This document shows positions 1,992 to 21,478 of a DNA stretch of 64,000 nt, piece by piece. The notes under the pieces are model-generated. The model was not told where the DNA came from and made no database searches. It was given only the letters and a program-made list of their open reading frames with translations. The position numbers and the translations under genes are program-made. Numbering within the stretch: position 1 is the stretch's first letter; every line of letters begins with the position of its first letter. This DNA is from an uncultured Alphaproteobacteria bacterium (GTDB lineage Bacteria > Pseudomonadota > Alphaproteobacteria > RF32 > CAG-239): assembly GCA_944392235.1 (NCBI GenBank), contig CALXVZ010000002.1, positions 73,288 to 137,287 of the forward strand. Reading direction: 5' to 3'.

Positions 1992-4646
1992 TTGATGTTC
2001 AGAAATAAAGATATACGACCGGATAAAATTTTAGAAGAGCGTCTCTTACTACTTGTATTTATGCTAACAGCCACAATAGTAAGTATAGGTTTTCTATTTG
2101 CTTATCCGGCATATCTTCGCCCAGTAATTTTACTAGTATTTTTATTTATTATCCTAAGCATATATATAACCATAACAATACTCCAATCTGGAGAAAGTGC
2201 CATTTTATATGGAGGATTAGCAAATGAGATATTAAAAAATCGCAAAACATGCTACATCATACTAAATTCAGAAGGTAAAACAATTCTGCAAAACCAAATT
2301 GCAAAAGATTTTTTAAAAGAAACCCCTATACTAAAATTTTTAGAAGATAATCTAGTTAAAACAGAAACAAACCAACAAAAACTAAAACAAATTCAATTAT
2401 CAGCAACACATTTTAAAGAAGACACAGTAGAGATTGCCCTAAAATTTAACAACACAGCCATATTTTCCGGAGAAGAATGGTATAGAATAACTCTTCGTCC
2501 AATCAGTTTAAATCAAAAAGACATAAGCGAAATAGATAATTCAAGCAAATTCAATATTAAATACAACACATATCTACTATGGAGTTTAGAAAATATCACT
2601 TCTGAAAAAACAATAAACACCATTTTCCAAGAAGAGAGAAGATCTTTTTACAACTTCCTCAATTTTATGCCAATAGGTTTATATATCTTAAACAATAAAG
2701 GAAAAATTGAATACATAAACAAAACGCTAAGCTTAATTTTAAATACCCCGAAAGAAAACATTTTAGGTAAAGACATCACAGATTTTTTACCTATTACCTC
2801 CGAAAGTATTGAAAAAATAAACAACACCAGCACACAATACATAACCTATATAAAAAATGCGAATAAAGCTCCGCAAGAATATTTAGTAAAAGTCGACCAA
2901 TTTAAACAAGGCAATGAAGTCCAAACAAGAGGAGCCATTATAGGCAATATTCCTACAGATTCGAAACTAAAAATAGCCTATGATGAAGCAATTTCTGAAG
3001 CAAATAGCATATTCAACTTATCACCATTTGGTATGTTGCTCTTAGATACAGAACTTGTAATTAAAAGAGTCAATCAAAAATTTACAGAAATCTTAGGTAT
3101 CCCTTCTTCCTCTCAATTATTAGACAACTATCTAGCCAATTATTTAGATGAGGATAGTATAGGCAAAATTAGAAAACAATTAAATGTCTTTACATCAGAA
3201 ACAGACAAACTCCAGCCGGCCTATTTTGATTTAAATTTAAGAGATAGAAAGAAGAATAAAATACTACGTATATATATCTGCCCTCTATTTAATTCTCCTT
3301 TACAAACAAAAGAGAATATCAAAGGAATTGTTCTGTTTTGTTTAGATACAACTGAACAAAAAAATCTAGAAACCCAATTTGCACAAGCCCAAAAGATGCA
3401 AGCGATGGGACAACTAGCCGGAGGAATAGCTCACGATTTTAATAACTTGCTTACTGCGATGATTGGTTTTTGCGATTTATTATTACAAAAGCACAAAATC
3501 GGAGATTCATCATTTGCCGATATAATTCAAATAAAACAAAATGCAAATTGTGCCGCTGAATTAGTAAAACAACTATTGCAATTTTCAAGAAAACAACCCT
3601 TACAACCAGAACTAAGTGATATAACAGATATATTAACAAACTACACACCTTTATTGAAAAGAACCGTCGGAGAACAAGTTGACTTACACTTTAAGCACGG
3701 TGAAAATTTAGATTATATAAAAGTAGATAAAGTCCAATTTTTGCAAGTTGTATTAAATCTATGCGTAAATGCAAAAGACGCAATGAACAAAAAGGGAGCG
3801 CTGACAATCTCTACGCAAAAAGAAACATTACTTGAGCCATATCACTTTGGAGCTGAAACAATCGAAAGTGGAAGCTTTATCAGAATGGATGTAACAGATA
3901 CAGGATGTGGTATTCCACTAGAAAATCTATCCAGAATATTTGAGCCATTTTTCTCAACTAAACAAAATGTTGTCGGTTCAGGGACTGGATTAGGTTTAGC
4001 TACTGTATACGGAATTGTACGCCAAATGGAAGGCTTTATAAAAGTAAAGAGTACCATAAATGTCGGCACAACTTTTTCAATATATTTACCAGCCTACCCA
4101 ATAGAAACATCTGCCAAAAAAGCAGAAGAAACATCCATGCGTAAGATATTAAATGACAAGAGAGGCAGAGCAATTTTAACACCAGCAGAAGTGCAAACAA
4201 CTAATAAAGACAAAGAAAAAATTATTTTAGGACTAAACTTATCTGCAATTGAAGACCCAGAACAAAAACCCGAAGAGATAGAAAATACAAGAATACTCTT
4301 TGTCGATGATGAGAATTCTGTTCGCACATTTGCCCTACGAGCTCTTCGTAAAAAAGGATATGATGTTATAGGATGCAATTCTGCAGAAAACGCCTTAGAA
4401 ACACTAGAGAATGATAAAAACTTCCAATTGATGATTACAGATATGGTAATGCCTGGACAAAATGGAATTGAACTATCCAAACAAGTTTTAGAAATTTTAC
4501 CGGATATAAAAATCATATTAGCATCAGGATACTCTGAAGACATTTTAAAAGGTGAATTTAATGATATAGATAATTTATCATTTATACCTAAGCCATTCAG
4601 TTTAAGTGATTTAACGCAAAAAGTTTATGAGGTTATGAAGTCATAA
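1992..4646 (+). CDS. cckA: hybrid sensor histidine kinase/response regulator, CckA-like
   Basis: 884 aa. N-terminal TM helices, PAS-like regions, H-box GGIAHDFNNLLTAMIGF, HATPase G-box GTGLGLATVYGIVRQ and a C-terminal receiver (VDDE...ITDMVMPGQNG). The H-box matches alphaproteobacterial CckA; the symbol is tentative. Confidence 0.7.
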   Translation: MMFRNKDIRPDKILEERLLLLVFMLTATIVSIGFLFAYPAYLRPVILLVFLFIILSIYITITILQSGESAILYGGLANEILKNRKTCYIILNSEGKTILQNQIAKDFLKETPILKFLEDNLVKTETNQQKLKQIQLSATHFKEDTVEIALKFNNTAIFSGEEWYRITLRPISLNQKDISEIDNSSKFNIKYNTYLLWSLENITSEKTINTIFQEERRSFYNFLNFMPIGLYILNNKGKIEYINKTLSLILNTPKENILGKDITDFLPITSESIEKINNTSTQYITYIKNANKAPQEYLVKVDQFKQGNEVQTRGAIIGNIPTDSKLKIAYDEAISEANSIFNLSPFGMLLLDTELVIKRVNQKFTEILGIPSSSQLLDNYLANYLDEDSIGKIRKQLNVFTSETDKLQPAYFDLNLRDRKKNKILRIYICPLFNSPLQTKENIKGIVLFCLDTTEQKNLETQFAQAQKMQAMGQLAGGIAHDFNNLLTAMIGFCDLLLQKHKIGDSSFADIIQIKQNANCAAELVKQLLQFSRKQPLQPELSDITDILTNYTPLLKRTVGEQVDLHFKHGENLDYIKVDKVQFLQVVLNLCVNAKDAMNKKGALTISTQKETLLEPYHFGAETIESGSFIRMDVTDTGCGIPLENLSRIFEPFFSTKQNVVGSGTGLGLATVYGIVRQMEGFIKVKSTINVGTTFSIYLPAYPIETSAKKAEETSMRKILNDKRGRAILTPAEVQTTNKDKEKIILGLNLSAIEDPEQKPEEIENTRILFVDDENSVRTFALRALRKKGYDVIGCNSAENALETLENDKNFQLMITDMVMPGQNGIELSKQVLEILPDIKIILASGYSEDILKGEFNDIDNLSFIPKPFSLSDLTQKVYEVMKS

Positions 4647-13816: not shown

Positions 13817-13892
13817 AGGGGTATAGCTCAGTTGGTAGAGCACCGGTCTCCAAAACCGGGTGTCGTGAGTTCGAATCTTACTGCCCCTGCCA
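13817..13892 (+). tRNA. tRNA-Trp (anticodon CCA)
   Basis: Hand-folded cloverleaf: acceptor AGGGGTA/TGCCCCT, D-arm GCTCAGTTGGTAGAGC, anticodon loop CTCCAAA, T-arm GTGAG-TTCGAAT-CTTAC, discriminator G, encoded CCA. Canonical position upstream of secE-nusG. Confidence 0.9.
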
Positions 13893-13926
13893 CTTAAGAT
13901 GAAGACGCTGAAAAGCGTCTTTTTTC
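13884..13926. repeat. direct repeat copy 0 (tRNA-Trp 3' end CCCCTGCCA + CTTAAGATGAAGACGCTGAAAAGCGTCTTTTTT), att-core-like
   Basis: The same ~43 bp recurs at 15081-15122 (identical) and 16031-16072 (3 mismatches). Confidence 0.85.
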
Positions 13927-13930
13927 TTTT
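13901..13930 (+). terminator. rho-independent terminator downstream of tRNA-Trp (part of repeat copy 0)
   Basis: GAAGACGCtgaaaaGCGTCTTTtttcttt: 8-bp stem plus T-run. Confidence 0.6.
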
Positions 13931-13950
13931 TAAATCAATGCGTTATTCAA

Positions 13951-14000
13951 GTCCGTGTAGCGTGTATCAGTTGAGGTTGTCTCCCGCTTTTTACACGGAC
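13951..14000. repeat. cassette-leader inverted repeat GTCCGTGTAG...CTACACGGAC (copy 1)
   Basis: Perfect 9-10 bp arms with a ~32 nt loop. Homologous hairpins lie at the same relative position in cassettes 2 and 3. Confidence 0.7.
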
Positions 14001-14173
14001 TACACAAAATAAAATTCTTTGATTTACAAGAGGTTAATCCAGTATGAATCTGATTTTGTTTTGGGATTTTTGTTCTTTGAATAATAAATTTGCAAAAGAA
14101 AAATAATTGCGATAGACTTCGAAAAATAAGTAATTTAATCTTACAAAAGAGCAGTTCGATTGGGAATTTTGGC

Positions 14174-14641
14174 ATGATATATTTGGTTTATCCTGGATTA
14201 GGAAAAACTTTTTTAGCTAAAAAAGATGTTGGATTTTGTGATATTAATGTTCGCAAATTCAAGGATGCTGACTTTGATAATTATACTTCAAGTTATCGGG
14301 GAACTAAAATTAAAAATATAAATCCAGATTTTCCAAACAATTTACAAAGCTACCTATTGGATAAAATCAAGTTAAACATAATTATTTTAATGGCCTTTAA
14401 GAAAGCAACAATACAGCTCCTTGAGAATATGAAGCTTGATTATGAAATTGTTTTACCCGATGAATCAAAACTTGAAGAATTAAAAGACATCTATAAACAG
14501 CGTGGTGATAGTGATAAGTATATTGAGCAAAATACAACCCATAGGTATAAGGAAACTTTATTTTTAGCCAGACAATCAGGAAAAGTCATTAGGTTTGTTG
14601 CAAAAGGTTTGTGGTTAGAAGATGTTATTATGGAAAAATAG
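14174..14641 (+). CDS. cassette 1 cargo: small P-loop (PGxGKT) kinase-like protein, unknown function
   Basis: YPGLGKTFLAKKD P-loop-like motif near the N-terminus. ~155 aa if ATG 14174 is used (the track alternative is 14090). No further recognisable family. Confidence 0.4.
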   Translation: MIYLVYPGLGKTFLAKKDVGFCDINVRKFKDADFDNYTSSYRGTKIKNINPDFPNNLQSYLLDKIKLNIIILMAFKKATIQLLENMKLDYEIVLPDESKLEELKDIYKQRGDSDKYIEQNTTHRYKETLFLARQSGKVIRFVAKGLWLEDVIMEK

Positions 14642-14756
14642 TTGAGATGAGTTTTACAACCATATTTAATGAAGAAATTGATGTGCTTTGTACTGATTGT
14701 ATGGTCATGGATAATAAAAAGTTTATGGCTTAATTGATTAAAAGGAAAAACAAATA

Positions 14757-15053
14757 ATGAAGGTCATTACAATTTGCGGTTCTTTGAAATTTGAGAAAGA
14801 TATTAAATATTGGGCGGAAAAATTGACCTTAGAGGGAAATTGTGTCTTATCAATTATCTATCCTATCAGTACAGATTTAGGTGTTTATACTTCTGAACAA
14901 CGAAGTTTTTTTGCCGAAGCTCATTACAAAAGAATAGATTTATCTGATGCCCTTTTTGTTGTTAATAAAAATGGATACATCGGCGATAGTACTCAAAAAG
15001 AGATTGAATATGCAAAGGCTCGCGGAAAGGAAGTTATCTTCTTGGAAAATTGA
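14757..15053 (+). CDS. cassette 2 cargo: nucleoside 2-deoxyribosyltransferase-like (Rossmann/SLOG-type) small protein
   Basis: 98 aa. N-terminal MKVITICGSL and C-terminal DALFVVNKNGYIGDSTQKEIEYAKARGKEVIFLE match the D...G..G.T..E..YA...GK.V signature of Nuc_deoxyrib_tr-like proteins. Confidence 0.55.
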   Translation: MKVITICGSLKFEKDIKYWAEKLTLEGNCVLSIIYPISTDLGVYTSEQRSFFAEAHYKRIDLSDALFVVNKNGYIGDSTQKEIEYAKARGKEVIFLEN

Positions 15054-15060
15054 AGAAATA

Positions 15061-15122
15061 GTCCGTATATTGTCCTATATCCCCTGCCACTTAAGATGAA
15101 GACGCTGAAAAGCGTCTTTTTT
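15061..15122. repeat. direct repeat copy 1 (cassette right end TAGTCCGTATATTGTCCTATAT + tRNA-3'-end/terminator core)
   Basis: 15081-15122 is identical to 13884-13925. The preceding 20 bp is shared with copy 2. Confidence 0.85.
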
Positions 15123-15145
15123 ATTATAAATCACAAGTCAGTTTA

Positions 15146-15195
15146 GTCCATGTAAGATATGTTTAATGAAGCCAATTCCCGCTTGTTACACGGAC
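15146..15195. repeat. cassette-leader inverted repeat GTCCATGTAA...TTACACGGAC (copy 2)
   Basis: Arms differ from copy 1 at 2 positions. Same position relative to the core repeat. Confidence 0.65.
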
Positions 15196-15329
15196 TTTCA
15201 TTTCTAAGTTTTTTTATTTTATAAGTGCTTAGCTAAGTGGGAATCCTATTAGGTTTCGGGATATTTTTGTTTTACAATAAAGGATTTTTCATTTACAATA
15301 TATCCTAGTTGAAAAAGGGGAGTTTTAGG

Positions 15330-16001
15330 ATGTCAATCTCAATAGAAGATGCAGAAAATATGGTTGATAATGTAAGGAAAAGGTGGATTGCACTTGGGCG
15401 TAAACCAGAGACCTTATATATGTATGACAATCATATAAAAGGTGCGGCAGTTGTTGCAAAAACAATAGCTACGCATTTGGAAAGCATAAATCCAGAACAA
15501 GCCTATGTTTGCGCTTTTTTACATGATATTGCAAAAATTGATGAATCTCCAGAATCTATGCTTGGGCGCTTTCATGGGATATTAGGATATGAAATGTTAA
15601 AAGATAAAGATTCCGCTGTTGCACGTGCGTGTTTATTACATGAAATTCCTTTAAATAGAATTACAAAATATACAGAAGCAAAATTTTTAGGTAATACAAA
15701 AGATTTTGATTTTGTCGTTGATTTTATCTCCAACACATCTTTAACTGATGAAGATATGCTTATCCAACTTTCAGATAGCATGGCTAATAAATCAAGTATT
15801 GTAACATTGGAACAGCGGCAGGAAGAATATGAGGCAAGATTTAATAAAAAGTTGCCTCCTGAATTTACTGAACCATATTTAGAAATAAAAGCATATTTTG
15901 ATAAAAAATTAGGTTTTAATTTGTATGAGCTGTTTCCAAGCCTTAATCAAAATTCTAGAAATACATATAAAATAGTCACAGAAAATATTAGGTATCGGTA
16001 A
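15330..16001 (+). CDS. cassette 3 cargo: HD-domain phosphohydrolase
   Basis: H...AFLHDIAK HD motif. RBS AAAGGGGA 8 nt upstream of ATG 15330 (the track start is 15309). Confidence 0.6.
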   Translation: MSISIEDAENMVDNVRKRWIALGRKPETLYMYDNHIKGAAVVAKTIATHLESINPEQAYVCAFLHDIAKIDESPESMLGRFHGILGYEMLKDKDSAVARACLLHEIPLNRITKYTEAKFLGNTKDFDFVVDFISNTSLTDEDMLIQLSDSMANKSSIVTLEQRQEEYEARFNKKLPPEFTEPYLEIKAYFDKKLGFNLYELFPSLNQNSRNTYKIVTENIRYR

Positions 16002-16009
16002 ATGAGGTA

Positions 16010-16078
16010 GTCCGTATATTATCCTATAAGCCCTGCCATTCAAGATGAAGACGCTGAAAAGCATCTTTTTTTCTTTTT
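16010..16078. repeat. direct repeat copy 2 (GTCCGTATATTATCCTATAAG + CCCTGCCATTCAAGATGAAGACGCTGAAAAGCATCTTTTTTT), slightly degenerate
   Basis: 3 substitutions relative to copies 0/1; the terminator stem carries one mismatch. Confidence 0.8.
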
Positions 16079-16097
16079 AAATCAATGCGTTATTCAA

Positions 16098-16147
16098 GTC
16101 CATATAGCGTGTATCCATTGAGATTGTTTTTCTCTTGATACACGGAC
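16098..16147. repeat. cassette-leader inverted repeat GTCCATATAG...TACACGGAC (copy 3)
   Basis: The ~95 bp after the repeat (16078-16170) is ~85% identical to 13930-14020. Confidence 0.65.
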
Positions 16148-16315
16148 CGCTCAAAATAAAATTTGTTGTTTTTTAAATAGTTAGCATGGTGAAACCTGAT
16201 TTTGTGGAGTTTATGCTCTAATTTTTTGATAGACTGACAGTCATTATTTATTGACACGATTATTCTTTTGTGCTATATACAATAATGAAGTTTATTCTAT
16301 ATGAGGAGAAATAAA

Positions 16316-16756
16316 ATGACTGAATATATTAAGTATTCAAATGATGAGGAACATGCTAATTTGTTTCTAAAAGTTGAGGATGATAAAGTTGTTGATTCTG
16401 TGAGAGATAAAGTTTATGCCGATAGGTATGGCCATAGTATTACCAGAAATTTGATTGGTATGAATATGGCTGATGTTGAGGAAATAATGAATTATGATGA
16501 TAAAATGTCTGCTCCTCAAAAGATTAGTGTTAAAGAGTTTTTAGAAGCAAAATCTAACTTTTTGAAAATTCAAAAAAAGGAGCATCAAATTGATGTTGCA
16601 AGAGCTAATACAACAAGAATACAAGATACAGGTACAGATAAATTGGCAGAAAAAGAACGAAAATTAAAGCGCAAATTAAATCCTGACCGTTATGAAAGTG
16701 AAGAAGCTATGGTTGACCAAAGAGTAAAAATTGCAAAAAAATATATGACTCGATAG
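16316..16756 (+). CDS. cassette cargo: hypothetical lysine-rich protein, unknown function
   Basis: RBS AGGAG 7 nt upstream of ATG 16316. No recognisable domain. Confidence 0.4.
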   Translation: MTEYIKYSNDEEHANLFLKVEDDKVVDSVRDKVYADRYGHSITRNLIGMNMADVEEIMNYDDKMSAPQKISVKEFLEAKSNFLKIQKKEHQIDVARANTTRIQDTGTDKLAEKERKLKRKLNPDRYESEEAMVDQRVKIAKKYMTR

Positions 16757-16789
16757 ATTTTTGAGCTAATTGTCGTAATTGGTTATTGA

Positions 16790-16878
16790 GCAAAAGGTGA
16801 AGGTTCGAAACCGGCAAGAGAGTTCGATGCTGAGGCTCACGAAAAACACGAAAAAGAAGTTATCTTTTGGGAAAATTA
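16790..16878 (+). pseudogene. decayed 3' fragment of a second deoxyribosyltransferase-like cassette gene
   Basis: Reads AKGEGSKPAREFDAEAHEKHEKEVIFWEN* against the intact GDSTQKEIEYAKARGKEVIFLEN* of the 14757..15053 protein. Preceded by an in-frame stop at 16787. Confidence 0.5.
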
Positions 16879-16894
16879 AAAGTATATGCAGATG

Positions 16895-16930
16895 AAAAAA
16901 CCCGTAGAACAATAGTATCCACGGGTTTTT
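16895..16930. terminator. weak bidirectional hairpin terminator candidate
   Basis: aaaaaaCCCGTagaacaatagtatccACGGGttttt: 5-bp stem, long loop, flanking A/T runs. Confidence 0.3.
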
Positions 16931-17285
16931 GTTAAGTTAATAATTCCAGTTAATTAACACATACAGTCTTTAGGACAAAAAACTCCAAGGATTTGACTGT
17001 ATTCCTAAACTCTTGTTGGTGAACGGATCTTTACATCGAGGAAAATCCATCTAATGCCACTTAGAACTACAATTACTTTCCTCTTTAAGTAATTTAGCAC
17101 TAGAAAGAGTAAATATTGGGGTTCACCATAATCCTGAATTATTTTTAACTGGGATATTACATAAATAGTAAGAGCCAATAAACAAAGCAGGATTAGTATT
17201 CCACAGTAATTCATAAATTATAAGATTTATCGTCACTAAGCTATAAAAATTAAAAATAAAAGTCAATGTTTTATTATTGATAAAA

Positions 17286-17350
17286 GTCCCTGGATTATCC
17301 TATATTCCCTACCAATAAAAAAGGAAGTCTTAAAAGAGACTTCCTTTTTT
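17286..17350. repeat. degenerate 4th copy of the cassette-end/tRNA-core repeat followed by a perfect terminator hairpin
   Basis: GTCCCTGGATTATCCTATATTCCCTACCA versus GTCCGTATATTGTCCTATATCCCCTGCCA, then GGAAGTCTtaaaagAGACTTCCtttttt. Same core+terminator architecture as copies 0-2. Confidence 0.6.
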
Positions 17351-17351
17351 A

Positions 17352-18161
17352 TTATAAAATATCTGTCATCATATTATCCTTTGAAGATTTCAAATTCATC
17401 TCGCTAAAACGTATGACAGATAGTTCTTGCTTAGAGCTTATTTTAAAGGCAATGACTGGATAGATTGTTTTTCCAATTAAATGCCCTACTAAAAAATCTT
17501 CGTTTTCTTGCGGATTTTTCAGCTCACCAGGAAAAAGATGTGTAACATTTAATTCATCATAAAAACGATGCAATGCACATGGATAAATAATATATTTTTT
17601 TCCTGTCTTTTGTGTTAAAAGCCAGATAGGTTCATCATAACTCGTTATTTTTAATTCTATGTTTTTTACTCCTTTAATAACTTCTTTAAAAGGAAAGTTA
17701 TTCAATATATCAGTCGGAGTCAAAAACAAGAGAGGACAATCAGTTCGATGCTCGTAATAACAACTCATCCCTAAAAACTGAGGAAGATAAATTTGTTCTC
17801 TTTTTTCAGAGATTGCAAACTTAGTTACAACGCTTTTACCTTTGATTTGCCACTGACGAAAAACGGAAGTCCACGCATTGGAATTATTTTTTTCTATAAA
17901 ATCATCAATATCAAATCCATTTCCTACATTGACGCTCTCGAGCGAGCAGAATTCATGATTAAATATCAAGTATTTAATATATTCTTTACCTAATATTGTC
18001 ATAGGGATAATCCATTGAGGTGTAACATCTGGAGAAGATGCTCTCAATATAATATCCTGCTCTCTGCATAATTTATATTCCAGTCCCTTTGCTTGAGAGC
18101 AAAGATAACCAACCAACGCTAAAATATCTTTAGCTTCGGTAATAAGTTCTATTGTCTTCAT
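17352..18161 (-). CDS. hypothetical protein (269 aa), island cargo
   Basis: No recognisable motif. Lies immediately downstream of the macro-domain gene on the same strand. Confidence 0.4.
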   Translation of the reverse strand: MKTIELITEAKDILALVGYLCSQAKGLEYKLCREQDIILRASSPDVTPQWIIPMTILGKEYIKYLIFNHEFCSLESVNVGNGFDIDDFIEKNNSNAWTSVFRQWQIKGKSVVTKFAISEKREQIYLPQFLGMSCYYEHRTDCPLLFLTPTDILNNFPFKEVIKGVKNIELKITSYDEPIWLLTQKTGKKYIIYPCALHRFYDELNVTHLFPGELKNPQENEDFLVGHLIGKTIYPVIAFKISSKQELSVIRFSEMNLKSSKDNMMTDIL

Positions 18162-18294
18162 AATATAATATTTTAATAGTTTAACATCATAATTTTATTT
18201 TACCTAAGTATATGGCTTCAAGGTAAAATGTAAAGAATTTATAATAAAAAAGGCTTTCCCTCCAAAGAGAAAGCCTTTCTTCATGTAGATAACA

Positions 18295-18903
18295 CTATTC
18301 AGGCAAGAGTCCCATTCCAATAAGCCATTCAGCTAAATTGATTTTCTTTTCGCCAGTTTCAATTTTAAAATCAAAAGATTGACTAGCTAAAACAGTTTCT
18401 GCCGGAACAGTTGAATTCCGAAAAATAACCAATCTGACCTCTTTCACGCAAGAATCAGGATAACGAGTACTAAACTGATCAATCGCAGAAAAAATCACCC
18501 GAGCAGATTGGTCCTGAGTTAAACGTCCTATAATGCCTGTTCCAAGTTCAGGAATAGCTATTCTACTAAACTTACGTTTATCAGCTTCTTGCAGAACACG
18601 CAAGATAGCCTCAAACACCACTCTGAACTGTTCAGACTTTCCAGCCCCTGCCGTCGCAACATGAGCCAACTGAATATTATTTTTTCCAGAATCTGTAATC
18701 ATAATCTCGCCATATTTTAACGGCTTTTTCTGCACAGCAAATTCGTAACGATCCAATCCTGAACACATTCCGTTTGCTGCTATTGCACCACCAACTCCGC
18801 CATAAGAAGCACCGTTTGTAAACTCCGGAACAACAATACAATCGACATTTTCCATAGCTATGTTACCATTTTTTACGATAACATCAACATTTCTAATCTT
18901 CAT
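18295..18903 (-). CDS. macro-domain (ADP-ribose binding/hydrolase) protein
   Basis: NVDCIVVPEFTNGASYGGVGGAIAANG matches the macro-domain N..A.....GGGV.GAI signature. Start preferred at MKIRNV (18903); the track start is 18978. Confidence 0.55.
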   Translation of the reverse strand: MKIRNVDVIVKNGNIAMENVDCIVVPEFTNGASYGGVGGAIAANGMCSGLDRYEFAVQKKPLKYGEIMITDSGKNNIQLAHVATAGAGKSEQFRVVFEAILRVLQEADKRKFSRIAIPELGTGIIGRLTQDQSARVIFSAIDQFSTRYPDSCVKEVRLVIFRNSTVPAETVLASQSFDFKIETGEKKINLAEWLIGMGLLPE

Positions 18904-19097
18904 AATCTGTAATCTTTTAGTTAGACATAATGATAATTGAACAAAAAGGAGTTTAACACAAAGAATCATCCTTTTCAAGAACTAAAGTAGCATAAATATC
19001 TCTTCGATAAAAATATTGACATTCGTTACTCTAACTATAAGATAAAATTCGATAAATTATAATTTATATATCATTTAACACCTAAAAATATAAGTTT

Positions 19098-19607
19098 ATG
19101 GAAAATTACGTATTATTACATGGCAACCATTACTATAAATGGTGGCATTTTTTTCTAAGAGATTCAGAGAAATATTTCCCCTATCCTATCGTTTACGAAG
19201 ATGGTTTGATAAGCAATTTAAAATCAGACAAAGAAAACAGAAAAGTCTGGGGCTTCATTTACAAGAAGCACATTATTTCTATTTACGCAGAGAAGATGTC
19301 CCCTAAAGAAGCCAGAGAATTCTGTAAGAAAAACATTTTCGCAGGAAAAAACTACTGTATAGTTCCGATAGCGATAATGAAAAAGATCCTACAAAACACT
19401 TCTCTTATCAACTCATTAATTAAGGAGTTAGGAGGAACTCTCATCGAATCTCAATGGTATATGGCTGCAAATGACCGCTGGCTGGATAAAGATTTTATAT
19501 TAGATAAAAAAATGTGCGGAGTTCATCCTCAAATCAAACCAGTAAGAAATTGCTGCTTCATTGATGAAGAAACAAACGCATATTTTTATCCGGCAATTGT
19601 GTTATAA
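19098..19607 (+). CDS. hypothetical protein (169 aa), island cargo
   Basis: No recognisable motif. Confidence 0.4.
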   Translation: MENYVLLHGNHYYKWWHFFLRDSEKYFPYPIVYEDGLISNLKSDKENRKVWGFIYKKHIISIYAEKMSPKEAREFCKKNIFAGKNYCIVPIAIMKKILQNTSLINSLIKELGGTLIESQWYMAANDRWLDKDFILDKKMCGVHPQIKPVRNCCFIDEETNAYFYPAIVL

Positions 19608-19865: not shown

Positions 19866-20057
19866 ATGGGAAACACAAGTCCGATACAATTTTTTAGACA
19901 AGTTAAACAAGAAGTAAAAAAGGTTACATGGCCATCTAAAAAAGAAGTAACACGAGCAACAATTATGGTAATGATAATCGTTGCAATTGCTTCTGCATTT
20001 TTCTTCTGTGTAGATATGATATTTGCCGCCATAGTTCGTGCAATATTTGAATATTAG
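19866..20057 (+). CDS. secE: preprotein translocase subunit SecE
   Basis: 63 aa with a single C-terminal TM helix (KKVTWPSKKEV...). Immediately upstream of nusG. Confidence 0.85.
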   Translation: MGNTSPIQFFRQVKQEVKKVTWPSKKEVTRATIMVMIIVAIASAFFFCVDMIFAAIVRAIFEY

Positions 20058-20669: not shown

Positions 20670-21116
20670 TTATTTTTGAGATGTCTCTAATATTTTCTCA
20701 CGAGCTTTACGAGCTTTCTCTGCAACTGTTTCTTTTGTTTTACTCTCTGTATCTCTATTCTGCATTTTTGCTAACTGATTTGGTTCTTTTTTTTTTAAAG
20801 AAGCCGCATATGCATACAAAATTTCATTTTCCGCATCAGGATTATCATTATATTTCATTTCACAAACATAGAGTGTTTCTAATTTTTTAATTTTACTAAT
20901 TGCTTCACTTTTTAAGCCTTCAATCAAAACCAAATCATCCTTAGAACGAGAAATTTCAATTAATTTATTTTTTTCATCCAACAAAAATGTAGGATTAGCA
21001 GGTTTACCCTCACCTGCATACAATAAAACCATAACTTCACCGGCATCATTATCCATCAATTCATAAACATTTTTAGGAGATAATGCTGTCGCATCTTTAT
21101 TTTCAGTCATATTCAC
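20670..21116 (-). CDS. hypothetical protein (148 aa)
   Basis: No recognisable motif; K/E-rich C-terminus. Confidence 0.4.
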   Translation of the reverse strand: MNMTENKDATALSPKNVYELMDNDAGEVMVLLYAGEGKPANPTFLLDEKNKLIEISRSKDDLVLIEGLKSEAISKIKKLETLYVCEMKYNDNPDAENEILYAYAASLKKKEPNQLAKMQNRDTESKTKETVAEKARKAREKILETSQK

Positions 21117-21271: not shown

Positions 21272-21478
21272 GTGGTTCAAGTTACTGTTATTGGTAATGA
21301 TGTAGCTCAGTCTTTAAAGATTTTAAAGAAGAAAATGCAACGTGAAGGAATCTTCCGCGAAATGAAATTAAGACGTTGCCATGAGAAAAACTCAGAAAAG
21401 AAAGCACGTCGCCAAGCTGAAGCTATCAGAAGAGCAAGAAAGCAGTTGCGTAAACGCTTAGATACAGAAGGTTTCTAA
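21272..21478 (+). CDS. rpsU: 30S ribosomal protein S21
   Basis: [35 protein letters not shown]... typical S21, 68 aa. Confidence 0.9.

What the first reader, a model, noticed from the sequence alone, without database searches (positions are those of the whole stretch)
13817..17350. Tandem single-gene cassette array seeded at the tRNA-Trp 3' end, between tRNA-Trp and secE
tRNA-Trp normally sits directly upstream of secE-nusG. Here ~6 kb intervenes, from the tRNA end at 13892 to secE at 19866. The last 9 nt of the tRNA plus its terminator (CCCCTGCCACTTAAGATGAAGACGCTGAAAAGCGTCTTTTTT) recur as direct repeats at 15081-15122 (identical) and 16031-16072 (near-identical). A degenerate copy with its own perfect terminator lies at 17286-17350. 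Each interval holds one small same-orientation gene, with a conserved cassette 'left end' (hairpin + leader) and a conserved 'right end' (TAGTCCGTATATTRTCCTATA) abutting the core. This is the architecture expected from serial site-specific integration into a tRNA 3' end, but in miniature: ~1 kb units with one gene per unit. It resembles an integron cassette array or tandem CIME-like elements rather than a classical genomic island. I do not recognise it as a described system.
Basis: seen in the sequence. Interest (0 to 1): 0.85.

Follow-up and report, generated by a model that had tools for sequence, protein, structure and literature searches.

The report
Mobile gene-cassette stack at tRNA-Trp
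Three small gene cassettes without any recombinase are stacked at the 3' end of the tRNA-Trp gene of an uncultured human-gut alphaproteobacterium; the same cassettes appear, nearly identical, in distantly related species, and they share their ends with a larger element that encodes a large serine recombinase.

Summary
The last 9 nt of tRNA-Trp plus a terminator recur at 15081-15122 (42/42) and 16031-16072 (38/42). A degenerate copy lies at 17285-17350. None is expected by chance.

Each unit has a conserved ~190-nt left end: terminator, a fixed-length 58-nt inverted-repeat module, and a leader. Each also has a 22-nt right end. The 'one gene per unit' claim is only partly right: unit 1 has two genes, and unit 3 is a fusion of at least three cassette fragments.

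The same junction occurs at the tRNA-Trp-secE locus of about 15 species-level gut Alphaproteobacteria MAGs. Cassettes are shared in different positions. The HD cassette is 99% identical between genomes whose nusG genes are 70% identical. A 95-99% identical strain lacks all three cassettes.

No recombinase lies in the 64-kb window. In another species a 9.5-kb element with the same two ends sits at tRNA-Trp and encodes a 530-aa large serine recombinase and a 198-aa small one. The right-end motif AGTCCGTAT lies 5 bp further from the crossover than its tRNA T-loop counterpart. That is the attP/attB geometry of large serine recombinases.

Best reading: non-autonomous cassettes mobilised in trans, as in SCCmec/psi-SCC and Dehalococcoides ssrA islands. 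It is a new variant of a known kind. The recombinase assignment is inferred.

The parts
13817..13892 (+). tRNA-Trp (CCA). Its last 9 nt, CCCCTGCCA (13884-13892), are the shared core in which crossover must occur. The T-loop motif AGTTCGAAT lies at 13867-13875.
   Evidence: ARAGORN; Rfam tRNA, 68 bits; half-site table
13893..14173 (+). Left end of cassette 1. It comprises CTTAAGAT plus the element-borne terminator (13901-13925), S2 AGTCCGTGT (13950-13958), S3 ACACGGACT (13993-14001), and a conserved leader.
14174..14641 (+). Cassette 1, gene 1: 155 aa with a P-loop-like GLGKT motif and no family hit.
   Evidence: an orthologous cassette occurs in L016
14757..15053 (+). Cassette 1, gene 2: 98 aa with a weak nucleoside 2-deoxyribosyltransferase-like match (E = 4e-4, below the Pfam cutoff).
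15059..15122 (+). Junction B. It comprises the right end of cassette 1 (S1 AGTCCGTAT 15060-15068 plus ATTGTCCTATATC), the core at 15081-15089, and the terminator at 15098-15122.
15123..15329 (+). Left end of cassette 2: S2 at 15145-15153, S3 at 15188-15196, leader, and a promoter-like TTTACA-17-TACAAT at 15271-15299.
15330..16001 (+). Cassette 2 gene: a 223-aa HD-domain protein.
   Evidence: Pfam HD, E = 3e-9. The same gene is 99.1% identical in L019 and 100% identical in L047, which has a different tRNA background.
16008..16072 (+). Junction C. It comprises the right end of cassette 2 (S1 at 16009-16017), the core GCCCTGCCA at 16030-16038, and the terminator at 16047-16072 (one stem mismatch).
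16073..16756 (+). Cassette 3a: left end (S2 at 16097-16105, S3 at 16140-16147; 81% identical to the cassette 1 left end) and a 146-aa gene of unknown function (16316-16756).
   Evidence: (D2)
16797..16880 (+). Remnant of the C-terminus of a 98-aa-type gene (...EKEVIFWEN*). It is evidence of cassette decay and fusion.
   Evidence: (D5/D7)
16895..17304 (-). Cassette 3b, which has lost its own left junction. It comprises a terminator hairpin at 16895-16930, a 69-aa reverse-strand membrane-type ORF at 17005-17214, and a degenerate right end AGTCCCTGGATTATCCTATA at 17285-17304.
   Evidence: 81% nt and 71% aa identity to the second cassette of L028
17305..17353 (+). Terminal junction D: degenerate core TCCCTACCA (17306-17314) followed by a different terminator (17317-17350). 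There is no S2/S3. It is the distal boundary of the variable array.
   Evidence: (I8). The same position is conserved in strain L061, which lacks the three cassettes.

Best explanation
The 13.9-17.35 kb segment is a stack of non-autonomous integrative cassettes inserted one after another into the 3' end of tRNA-Trp.

Anatomy. Each cassette, in circular form, would carry a single attachment region made of:
- a 22-nt right end (AGTCCGTAT + ATTRT + CCTATATC);
- a core of 8-9 bp identical to the tRNA 3' end (C-CCCTGCCA);
- a replacement terminator for the upstream transcript (nTCAAGATGAAGACGC...);
- a 58-nt fixed-length module with inverted AGTCCGTGT arms;
- a leader.

Reaction. Recombination inside the core joins the tRNA to the incoming terminator and left end. 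It pushes earlier cassettes downstream. The distal boundary is left as right end + core + a different terminator.

Recombinase (inferred). The enzyme is not in the window. The most likely one is a 530-aa large serine recombinase ('LSR530'), with its accompanying 198-aa small serine recombinase and two small ORFs. These are encoded on 9.5-kb-class elements that have exactly the same two ends and sit at the same tRNA in related species. The mini-cassettes would be its non-autonomous relatives, used in trans, as psi-SCC elements use Ccr and as integrase-less ssrA islands are proposed to use DsiAB.

Half-site reading (inferred). The 9-bp motif AGTCCGTAT in the right end is the P-type distal (zinc-ribbon-domain) motif. 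The tRNA T-loop AGTTCGAAT, 5 bp closer to the core, is the B-type counterpart.

Status of each step:
- Shown: anatomy, conservation, cassette-wise variation, horizontal transfer, the LSR-bearing element with identical ends, and the 5-bp offset.
- Inferred: that LSR530 catalyses the reaction, the crossover dinucleotide, the role of the 58-nt module, and how arrays grow.
- Conjecture: because the incoming left end supplies a B'-like half-site, integration regenerates an attB-like site at the tRNA.

Confidence. About 0.9 that this is a site-specific, horizontally mobile cassette array. About 0.55 that LSR530 is the recombinase. The single figure given (0.6) is for the statement as a whole.
For: 1. 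Repeats are far beyond chance and confined to this locus.

2. The junction S1 + core + terminator + S2/S3 is conserved at the tRNA-Trp-secE locus of about 15 species-level MAGs.

3. The crossover is delimited to C-CCCTGCCA. The first junction has tRNA sequence on its left. The last junctions have S1 + core followed by unrelated terminators and no S2/S3.

4. Cassettes are shared at different array positions, with identity far above that of housekeeping genes:
- HD cassette 99.1% against nusG 69.8% (window/L019);
- 89-aa cassette 92.5% against nusG 71.8% (L011/L020);
- the HD gene is 100% identical behind a different tRNA-Trp sequence in L047.

5. Strain-level variation:
- L061 is 99% identical in nusG and 95% identical over 5 kb. 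There the tRNA runs straight into another terminator and a single 77-aa module, and the three cassettes are absent.
- L016 and L024 have identical nusG but different arrays.

6. L189 carries, directly at tRNA-Trp, a canonical left end, then cargo, then SR198 + 146 aa + 163 aa + LSR530 + 304 aa, then a canonical right end AGTCCGTGCATTATCTTACTGC + CCCTGCCA.

7. LSRs at least 67% identical to LSR530 lie in this interval in four independent contexts: L029, L176, L180 and L189. Each is followed 1.2-2.7 kb later by S1 + core. In L179 the same arrangement occurs with no secE in view. A 53% relative lies elsewhere without these sites.

8. The 5.7-kb element of L028 is a deletion derivative. It keeps SR198 (93% aa) and the first ~100 nt of the LSR gene.

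9. The motif offset is -22..-14 (right ends) against -17..-9 (tRNA), with 7/9 identity. This matches the published 5-bp shift of the zinc-ribbon-domain motif between LSR attP (positions 16-24) and attB (11-19) (PMC3783163).

10. No tyrosine recombinase was found in any element bounded by these ends. No recombinase of any family was found among the window ORFs of at least 150 aa.

11. An S2-like 11-mer (GAGTYCGTGTG) is conserved about 70 nt upstream of the LSR operon in four lineages at 61-98% identity to LSR530: L176, L179, L180 and L192. L192 showed no cassette ends in the DNA held.
Against: - No experiment, and no read-level evidence of excised circles.
- The window genome shows no LSR within 64 kb, and its presence elsewhere in that genome could not be tested.
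- Canonical phage LSRs recombine only attP x attB. The internal junctions are full P-O-P' sites and the tRNA-proximal site is a B-O-P' hybrid. Array growth therefore needs either Ccr-like relaxed pairing or a B'-like left end. Neither is shown.
- The core region shows no dyad symmetry above background (10/24). The P' half-site matches the 9-bp motif only weakly (4-5/9).
- Left ends are mosaic relative to cargo. HD-cassette homology between the window and L047 starts only at S3. Cassette 1 homology with L016 starts about 95 nt after S3. So homologous recombination also shapes the arrays.
- The LSR gene is itself a sharply bounded module with unrelated flanks in different genomes. It could be a frequent passenger rather than the driver.
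- L192 (61% LSR) has the promoter motif but no cassette ends in the 4.9 kb available.
Confidence: 0.6

Rival explanations
1. The cassettes are moved by a trans-acting tyrosine recombinase, with the S sites as arm-type sites. It could be a chromosomal enzyme such as the widespread 199-aa recombinase 'YR199', or the integrase of an unseen ICE or phage.
For: - Tandem arrays with full attP-like internal junctions and a short identity core of 6-9 bp are typical of tyrosine recombinases and integrons.
- S1, S2 and S3 resemble arm-type sites. A prophage integrase family at the same tRNA uses the similar arm motif AGTCAGAAT.
- In L017 a 199-aa tyrosine recombinase (Pfam PF00589, E = 1e-17) lies 2.3 kb upstream of a cassette junction that is not preceded by a tRNA.
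- YR199 is highly conserved and abundant in these bacteria.
Against: - No tyrosine recombinase lies inside any element bounded by the cassette ends.
- YR199 in ten other contexts has no S or core motif within 10 kb. It has its own, different inverted repeats, ACTCATTATA.
- The prophage integrase shares a 54-nt identity block starting at the anticodon stem, so it crosses over elsewhere in the tRNA.
- The 5-bp motif offset and the LSR-bearing element with identical ends are unexplained by this model.
Confidence: 0.15
2. Present-day shuffling is mainly homologous recombination. After DNA uptake or transduction, the ~190-nt conserved left ends and ~60-nt right end/core/terminator act as portable homology arms. 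The site-specific origin is ancient, and the spacers are kept as terminator-promoter insulators.
For: - Left ends are mosaic relative to cargo, with breakpoints inside the best-conserved stretches: S3, and the leader TTTTGGGA.
- Loop types of the 58-nt module recur with unrelated cargo.
- Fused and decayed cassettes are common.
- The window has no recombinase.
Against: - Homology arms of 20-60 nt are short for efficient RecA-dependent exchange between genomes only about 70% identical in a housekeeping gene.
- This model does not explain the near-invariant 22-nt right end, the fixed 58-nt length, the tRNA-end core at every junction, or the LSR element with the same ends.
- The first and last junctions have the hybrid structure expected of conservative site-specific recombination.
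Confidence: 0.15
3. The repeat is a generic dispersed repeat (REP/MITE), an assembly artefact, or local tandem duplication of the tRNA 3' flank.
For: Contigs from other samples break at the repeats, which shows that assemblers struggle here.
Against: - There is a single locus per window and per genome.
- The same architecture was assembled independently in many samples and species.
- Each interval holds unrelated genes.
- Logan unitigs L048, L060 and L062 reproduce the window junctions at 100% identity.
Confidence: 0.02

Closest known systems
SCCmec / psi-SCC composite islands at rlmH (orfX) in staphylococci (own knowledge of the family; CcrB comparison)
   Same: - Cassettes insert at the 3' end of one essential gene and restore that end.
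- They are bounded by short direct repeats and stack in tandem.
- Many units lack recombinase genes and depend on large serine recombinases (CcrAB/CcrC) supplied by another unit.
- Cargo is variable and the elements spread between species.
   Different: - The target here is a tRNA gene, not a protein gene.
- Units are much smaller, down to 0.65-1.2 kb.
- Every unit brings a terminator, a 58-nt palindromic module and a leader.
- LSR530 is only distantly related to CcrB (59 bits against a cutoff of 900).
- The host is a Gram-negative gut alphaproteobacterium.
Dehalococcoides ssrA-specific genomic islands (McMurdie et al. 2011, PMC3146451)
   Same: - Multiple tandem islands lie downstream of a small stable-RNA gene, bounded by a repeat of its 3' end.
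- The integration module holds a ~540-aa large serine recombinase plus a ~200-aa small serine recombinase.
- About half of the islands lack the module and were proposed to be cis-mobilizable.
- The inferred insertion point is near the T-loop/3' end.
   Different: - There the target is tmRNA, with a 20-bp repeat; here it is tRNA-Trp, with 9 bp.
- Those islands are 10-30 kb, with the module next to attL.
- Here most units are about 1 kb, with highly conserved left and right ends, and there is inter-genus transfer at 99% identity.
Integron cassette arrays
   Same: Functionally alike: ordered arrays of small, mostly one- or two-gene, recombinase-less cassettes. Each carries its own recombination site with conserved ends and a variable middle. 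Cassettes are exchanged between species, and the newest is next to the fixed site.
   Different: - There is no intI, attI or Pc next to the array.
- The junction is not an attC: no R''/R' GTTRRRY boxes, and the crossover lies about 60 nt away from the palindrome.
- Cassettes appear to carry their own leader/promoter region and a terminator.
- The fixed site is a tRNA 3' end.
CIMEs and tandem accretion at ICE/IME attachment sites; tycheposons of Prochlorococcus (10.1101/2020.12.28.424599)
   Same: - Elements are flanked by att repeats at a tRNA 3' end.
- Successive integrations push older elements inward.
- Degenerate remnants accumulate.
- Non-autonomous units rely on a relative's integrase.
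   Different: - Those systems use tyrosine recombinases (mostly), and the elements are several kb to tens of kb.
- Described arrays are separated by partial tRNAs of tens of nt.
- No conserved terminator, palindrome or leader module has been described for them.

Membership tests
Integron | intI tyrosine recombinase gene adjacent to the array, with attI and Pc | tested here: not met
   No PF00589 or other recombinase among the window ORFs of at least 150 aa. Genes upstream of the tRNA are rsfS/obg/rpmA in this species and differ between species.
Integron | attC site at each cassette 3' end (R''-L''...L'-R' imperfect palindrome with crossover in GTTRRRY) | tested here: not met
   The junction alignment shows the crossover core CCCTGCCA about 60 nt upstream of the palindrome. 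The palindrome arms are AGTCCGTGT/ACACGGACT, and no GTTRRRY/RYYYAAC pair is present. Hairpin stems show one-sided changes only.
Large-serine-recombinase cassette elements (SCC-like / ssrA-GI-like) | Autonomous members encode an LSR and share att ends with the non-autonomous members | tested here: met
   The L189 element at tRNA-Trp has a canonical left end and right end and encodes LSR530 (PF00239 + PF07508) and SR198. L029, L176 and L180 have the LSR followed by S1 + core.
Large-serine-recombinase cassette elements (SCC-like / ssrA-GI-like) | Insertion at the 3' end of a single conserved gene, with short direct repeats and tandem stacking | tested here: met
   The 9-bp tRNA-end core is present at every junction. 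Arrays hold 1 to at least 4 units in about 15 species.
Large-serine-recombinase cassette elements (SCC-like / ssrA-GI-like) | attP/attB half-site geometry of LSRs (distal 9-bp motif 5 bp further out in attP) | tested here: inconclusive
   The left half-sites fit: AGTCCGTAT at -22..-14 against AGTTCGAAT at -17..-9 (rule from PMC3783163). The right half-sites match weakly, and overall dyad symmetry is not above background.
Large-serine-recombinase cassette elements (SCC-like / ssrA-GI-like) | The LSR actually catalyses integration and excision at these sites | not testable with these tools
   Needs recombination assays or read-level detection of circles.
CIME / accretion at a tRNA att site | Integrase-less unit flanked by functional att sites of a cognate integrative element | tested here: met
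   The window cassettes have no recombinase, and their ends match those of the LSR element in L189. The functionality of the sites is inferred from inter-species transfer.
Tycheposon | Element-encoded tyrosine recombinase (or LSR) with a replication module, next to a tRNA, with partial tRNA repeats | tested here: not met
   There is no integrase or replication gene in the window cassettes, and the repeat is only 9 nt of the tRNA. For the description of the family.
REP / MITE dispersed repeat | Many copies dispersed at unrelated loci | tested here: not met
   There are zero copies elsewhere in the 64-kb window. There are 1-2 hits per species genome, at the tRNA-Trp-secE locus wherever context is visible. 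L017 and L179 are possible exceptions.
IMEX / dif (pdif) modules | 28-bp XerC/XerD dif-like site (11-6-11) at module borders | tested here: not met
   By inspection of the junction consensus, the S1 left arm resembles a XerC arm at 7/10, but there is no XerD arm (3/11). The comparison with the E. coli dif consensus is from memory.

The most novel reading that the evidence does not exclude
This is an undescribed gene-capture platform that does the job of an integron with a large serine recombinase and a tRNA 3' end instead of IntI/attI/attC.

Each cassette is a self-contained expression unit (terminator, 58-nt LSR-binding palindrome, leader, gene). Its left end supplies a B'-type half-site. Every insertion therefore regenerates an attB-like site at the tRNA, while internal junctions are attP-like. 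Insertion and excision are then the same attP x attB reaction, with no directionality factor. Only blocks that begin at the tRNA can leave, so the array behaves as a last-in-first-out stack. The cassettes circulate among genera of human-gut Alphaproteobacteria.
Probability: 0.25. Interest if true: 0.85.

Novelty: new variant of a known kind. Interest (0 to 1): 0.72.

Why it matters
If the reading holds, a clade of uncultured human-gut Alphaproteobacteria keeps a dedicated, highly standardised slot at tRNA-Trp. Kilobase-sized, ready-to-express gene units are stacked there and traded across genus-level distances.

That would be a second, mechanistically independent solution to the problem integrons solve. 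It probably runs on a large serine recombinase.

It would also bear on genome engineering. LSRs with a natural, short, tRNA-embedded attB and compact attP modules are of practical interest. A system in which integration regenerates the target would allow serial stacking.

The cargo is almost entirely uncharacterised: HD, macro-like, P-loop and deoxyribosyltransferase-like proteins, and small membrane proteins. It sits beside restriction, Dam and AAA-ATPase modules. The arrays are therefore a catalogue of candidate accessory or defence genes.

Tried and rejected
1. Rfam scan of 13.5-20 kb: only the tRNA reached threshold, so the left end matches no described RNA family.

2. Hairpin as a structured element. 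The 58-nt module folds with a 9-11 bp basal stem (z from -1.4 to -4.8). Variation is one-sided and sometimes disruptive, with no compensatory changes. It is treated as paired protein-binding sites, not as a proven hairpin.

3. Promoter scan. Promoter-like hexamers are no more frequent than in shuffles (17 against 18.7), so 'own promoter' stays an inference from leader conservation.

4. SR198 as the driver. In L028 it is flanked by a 31-nt 90% inverted repeat and may be an invertase. Later it proved to be a conserved partner of the LSR module. Its role is unresolved.

5. YR199 as the driver: rejected as unsupported.

6. Prophage integrase Int359 at tRNA-Trp: a different crossover region and different arm motif.

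7. Viral-contig scan for paired AGTCCGTRT sites. This returned 99 hits. The seven from the same dataset as L066 that were inspected are an unrelated phage group with a 21-nt tandem repeat. The others were not inspected and are presumed chance matches.

8. The JGI metagenome scan gave one genuine hit only (L046, human gut). The other 15 hits were chance matches.

9. The viral scan for the junction pattern gave nothing.

10. Dyad-symmetry search around the core: nothing above background.

11. PADLOC and NCBIfam scans of the cargo: no convincing defence-system assignment.

12. I first called the alternative terminator 'native'. It is more likely the left end of a second cassette class, the 77-aa reverse-gene module. 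In L014 that module is itself flanked by core + the same terminator.

Full report
**1. What is in the window**

ARAGORN finds one tRNA in the 64 kb: tRNA-Trp at 13817-13892 on the plus strand (Rfam tRNA 68 bits). secE starts at 19866 and nusG follows.

The last nine bases of the tRNA plus a GC-stem terminator form a 42-nt block, CCCCTGCCACTTAAGATGAAGACGCTGAAAAGCGTCTTTTTT (13884-13925). It recurs at 15081-15122 with 42/42 identity and at 16031-16072 with four mismatches.

Immediately upstream of the second and third copies lies AGTCCGTATATTRTCCTATA (15060, 16009). A 3-mismatch copy at 17285 is followed by TCCCTACCA and a different, perfect terminator at 17317-17350. Neither pattern occurs in any of 100 dinucleotide-preserving shuffles, nor anywhere else in the window.

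After each of the three terminators comes a module with inverted arms AGTCCRTRT...ACACGGAC (13950/13993, 15145/15188, 16097/16140), and then a leader.

- Interval 1 has two genes: a 155-aa protein, and a 98-aa protein with a weak deoxyribosyltransferase-like match.
- Interval 2 has one gene: a 223-aa HD-domain protein (Pfam E = 3e-9).
- Interval 3 is a fusion of three parts: a left end with a 146-aa gene; the C-terminal remnant of a 98-aa-type gene; and a reverse-strand 69-aa gene whose segment is 81% identical in DNA to a separate cassette in another genome.

**2. The same architecture in relatives**

The window is part of a 70.8-kb metagenomic contig (BRZ_SM NODE_365).

I scanned one genome per prokaryotic species with the pattern ATTRTCCTATANNCCCTRCCA. 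It returned 21 stretches. Seventeen come from about 15 uncultured Alphaproteobacteria MAGs of human-gut series. The other four are chance matches.

A scan of JGI metagenomes gave one genuine hit, in a human-gut assembly. A scan of viral contigs gave none.

In the genuine loci the junction is almost invariant. In order, it reads:
- right end AGTCCGTATATTATCCTATATC;
- core CCCTGCCA;
- nTCAAGATGAAGACGCTGAAAAGCGTCTTTTTT;
- about 25 nt;
- GAGTCCGTGTG;
- a variable stretch;
- TTCCCGCTTGTTACACGGACT;
- a leader with conserved blocks.

The segment from the first inverted arm to the second is 58 nt in 16 of the 18 distinct copies listed (the others are 59 and 65 nt). Its ends are conserved and its middle is variable.

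Wherever context is visible, the locus is tRNA-Trp upstream and secE-nusG downstream.

**3. Where the crossover is**

The first junction of an array has genuine tRNA sequence to the left of C-CCCTGCCA, and the element terminator and inverted-repeat module to the right.

Internal junctions have the right end to the left and the same terminator and module to the right.

The last junction has the right end and core, followed by an unrelated terminator and no inverted-repeat module.

This is the attL / attP-like / attR pattern of conservative site-specific recombination. It confines the crossover to the nine shared bases. One consequence is that each incoming unit replaces the terminator of whatever lies upstream: the tRNA, or the previous cassette.

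**4. Cassettes move**

Clustering of predicted proteins shows the same cassettes at different positions in different genomes.
- The HD cassette is second in the window, last in L010 and L019, and first in L047.
- The two-gene cassette 1 is first in the window and later in L016.
- A 71-aa cassette occurs in five genomes.
- An 89-aa cassette is first in L011 and second in L020.

DNA identity of shared cassettes far exceeds that of nusG.
- HD cassette: 99.1% against 69.8% for nusG (window/L019).
- 89-aa cassette: 92.5% against 71.8% (L011/L020).
- In L047 the HD gene is 100% identical to the window but follows a tRNA-Trp of different sequence.

Variation also occurs within a species.
- L061 is 99.3% identical in nusG and 95% identical over 5 kb downstream of position 17286. 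There the tRNA runs directly into ATAAAAAAACCGTCCGAAAGGGCGGTTTTTTTT, a single 77-aa reverse gene and two fossil junctions. The three window cassettes are absent.
- L016 and L024 have identical nusG but different arrays.

**5. Search for the recombinase**

Pfam scans and precomputed annotations cover the window's ORFs of at least 150 aa. They show no recombinase or transposase. tblastn with the recombinases found elsewhere gives nothing.

Three leads were rejected or left open.
- A 199-aa tyrosine recombinase near a junction in L017 belongs to a very abundant family. Its members sit between wholly different defence gene sets. They have no cassette motifs within 10 kb and have their own inverted repeats.
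- A prophage at tRNA-Trp has a 359-aa integrase. Its identity block is the 3' 54 nt of the tRNA, starting at the anticodon stem, and its arm motif is AGTCAGAAT. It therefore uses another part of the tRNA.
- A 198-aa small serine recombinase in L028 is flanked by a 31-nt inverted repeat.

The productive lead was a 530-aa large serine recombinase (PF00239 + PF07508 + zinc ribbon), first seen in L029.
- Relatives at least 67% identical lie in the tRNA-Trp-secE interval in L176, L180 and L189 as well as L029. Each is followed 1.2-2.7 kb downstream by right end + core. In L179 the same arrangement occurs with no secE in view.
- A 53% relative lies elsewhere, without these motifs.

L189 contains a complete interval, in this order:
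- tRNA-Trp at 1410-1485;
- a canonical left end;
- three reverse cargo genes;
- the small serine recombinase (93% identical to that of L028);
- a 146-aa ORF and a 163-aa ORF;
- the 530-aa recombinase;
- a 304-aa gene;
- the right end AGTCCGTGCATTATCTTACTGC + CCCTGCCA.

This 9.5-kb element has the same two ends as the mini-cassettes. The 5.7-kb element of L028 is a deletion derivative that retains the first ~100 nt of the LSR gene.

**6. Site geometry**

Right ends carry AGTCCGTAT at -22..-14 from the core. The tRNA carries AGTTCGAAT (its T-loop) at -17..-9, which is 7/9 identical and 5 bp closer.

The L189 right end equals the tRNA 3' half with a 5-nt insertion (ATTAT) between this motif and CTTACTGC.

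For large serine recombinases, a 9-bp zinc-ribbon-domain motif occupies positions 16-24 in attP half-sites and 11-19 in attB half-sites, a 5-bp shift (Rutherford et al. 2013, PMC3783163). The numbers fit if the crossover dinucleotide lies within CCCTGCCA.

The fit is limited to the left half-sites. The right half-sites match weakly, and no dyad symmetry above background is seen.

The two arms of the 58-nt module are 52 bp apart at their outer ends. That is about the size of an attP, so the module may bind a recombinase dimer. An S2-like 11-mer is also conserved upstream of the LSR operon in four lineages at 61-98% identity: L176, L179, L180 and L192. These points are suggestive, not proof.

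**7. Complications**

Left ends are mosaic relative to cargo, so homologous recombination between conserved modules also operates.

Canonical phage LSRs do not recombine attP with attL. Array growth therefore needs Ccr-like relaxed pairing. The alternative is my conjecture that the left end supplies a B'-type half-site, so that insertion regenerates an attB-like site.

A second junction class exists: core + ...CCGTCCGAAAGGGCGG terminator + a 77-aa reverse gene, without the inverted-repeat module.

The cargo is largely uncharacterised.

**8. Comparison and verdict**

The closest described systems are these.
- SCCmec/psi-SCC composite islands (own knowledge).
- The ssrA-specific islands of Dehalococcoides. 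[quoted passage not shown] They have a 540-aa large and a 200-aa small serine recombinase, and about half the islands lack the module (PMC3146451).

In function the arrays resemble integrons, but they fail both defining tests: no intI/attI and no attC.

This system differs from all of the above in five ways:
- the tRNA target;
- the kilobase size of most units;
- the standardised terminator-palindrome-leader left end;
- the tRNA-mimicking 22-nt right end;
- near-identical cassettes in genomes whose nusG genes are only about 70% identical.

I rate it a new variant of a known kind. The array, its site-specific origin and its mobility are well supported. The identity of the recombinase is a reasoned inference that needs experiment.

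Noticed in passing
L017 (orig. 3345-3941, minus); L049-L058: A 199-aa catalytic-domain-only tyrosine recombinase is extremely abundant in gut Alphaproteobacteria. It comes with about 150 nt of upstream DNA carrying two ACTCATTATA...TATAATGAGT inverted repeats. The identical protein is flanked in different samples by entirely different defence systems (Z1/AIPR/Dcm-Vsr, type I RM, DpnII, LSR elements). Variation starts exactly at the ends of the ~770-nt unit. It looks like a second, independent hotspot or platform.
   Followed up: partly
L066 and L070 (IMGVR_UViG_3300045988_182299); L171-L175: A ~39-kb prophage is integrated in tRNA-Trp upstream of a cassette array. It has a 359-aa tyrosine integrase, a 54-nt tRNA identity block starting at the anticodon stem, and arm-type repeats AGTCAGAAT. 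A 51% relative with the same arm motif targets tRNA-Ser. tRNA-Trp is thus used by at least two unrelated integration systems.
   Followed up: partly
L028 3447-3477 and 6572-6602: A 31-nt, 90% complementary inverted repeat brackets a 3.1-kb segment holding the 198-aa small serine recombinase and a 636-aa repeat protein. It may be an invertible segment. The same recombinase is a conserved neighbour of the LSR in L189, L185 and L176.
   Followed up: partly
L013 (oriented) ~2170-2200; L189 13810-13847: Some junctions lack S1. Instead they have GCAGGGG-N8/9-...CTTACTGCCCCTGCCA, in which GCAGGGG can pair with CCCCTGC. This looks like an acceptor-stem mini-helix ending in CCA. Its meaning is unknown.
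   Followed up: no
window 20670-21116 (-), 21272-21478: In this species nusG is followed by a reverse 148-aa gene of unknown function, then rpsU, an HD protein and serS. In L176, L180 and L189 nusG is followed instead by mscL and rplK-rplA-rplJ-rplL. The secE-nusG-rplKAJL cluster is therefore broken here.
   Followed up: no
window 17352-19607: Three genes lie between the array and secE: a 269-aa unknown (-), a 202-aa macro-domain protein (-), and a 169-aa unknown (+). They are conserved in the cassette-free strain L061. They are absent from species such as L024, where secE follows the last junction within ~0.85 kb. They may be old, fixed cargo.
   Followed up: partly
L014 (oriented) 1060-1500; L061 50-520; L024, L029: There is a second cassette class. 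It has core + ...CCGTCCGAA(A/T)GGGCGG terminator + a 77-aa reverse gene, with a degenerate S1 + core at the far side and no S2/S3 module. It is usually at the distal end of arrays. In L061 it is the only occupant.
   Followed up: partly
L017 (orig. ~1620-2010): A 133-aa ORF consists largely of about 11 tandem copies of YTGPGGGL. It lies in the island between the 199-aa recombinase and the cassette junction.
   Followed up: no
L098, L105, L106, L109, L125, L133, L150: A group of 30-45-kb viral contigs carries 2-3 tandem 21-nt repeats, AATGCAAGYACAGTCCGTATT, in an intergenic region next to structural genes. They share the 9-mer of the cassette S site. No integrase or tRNA fragment was seen in the stretches held, and they were judged unrelated.
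   Followed up: yes
L002-L008, L060, L062: Contigs of the same species from other samples end inside tRNA-Trp or begin exactly at junction C (window 16072). Short-read assemblies systematically break at this array, so its diversity is probably under-reported in MAGs.
   Followed up: partly
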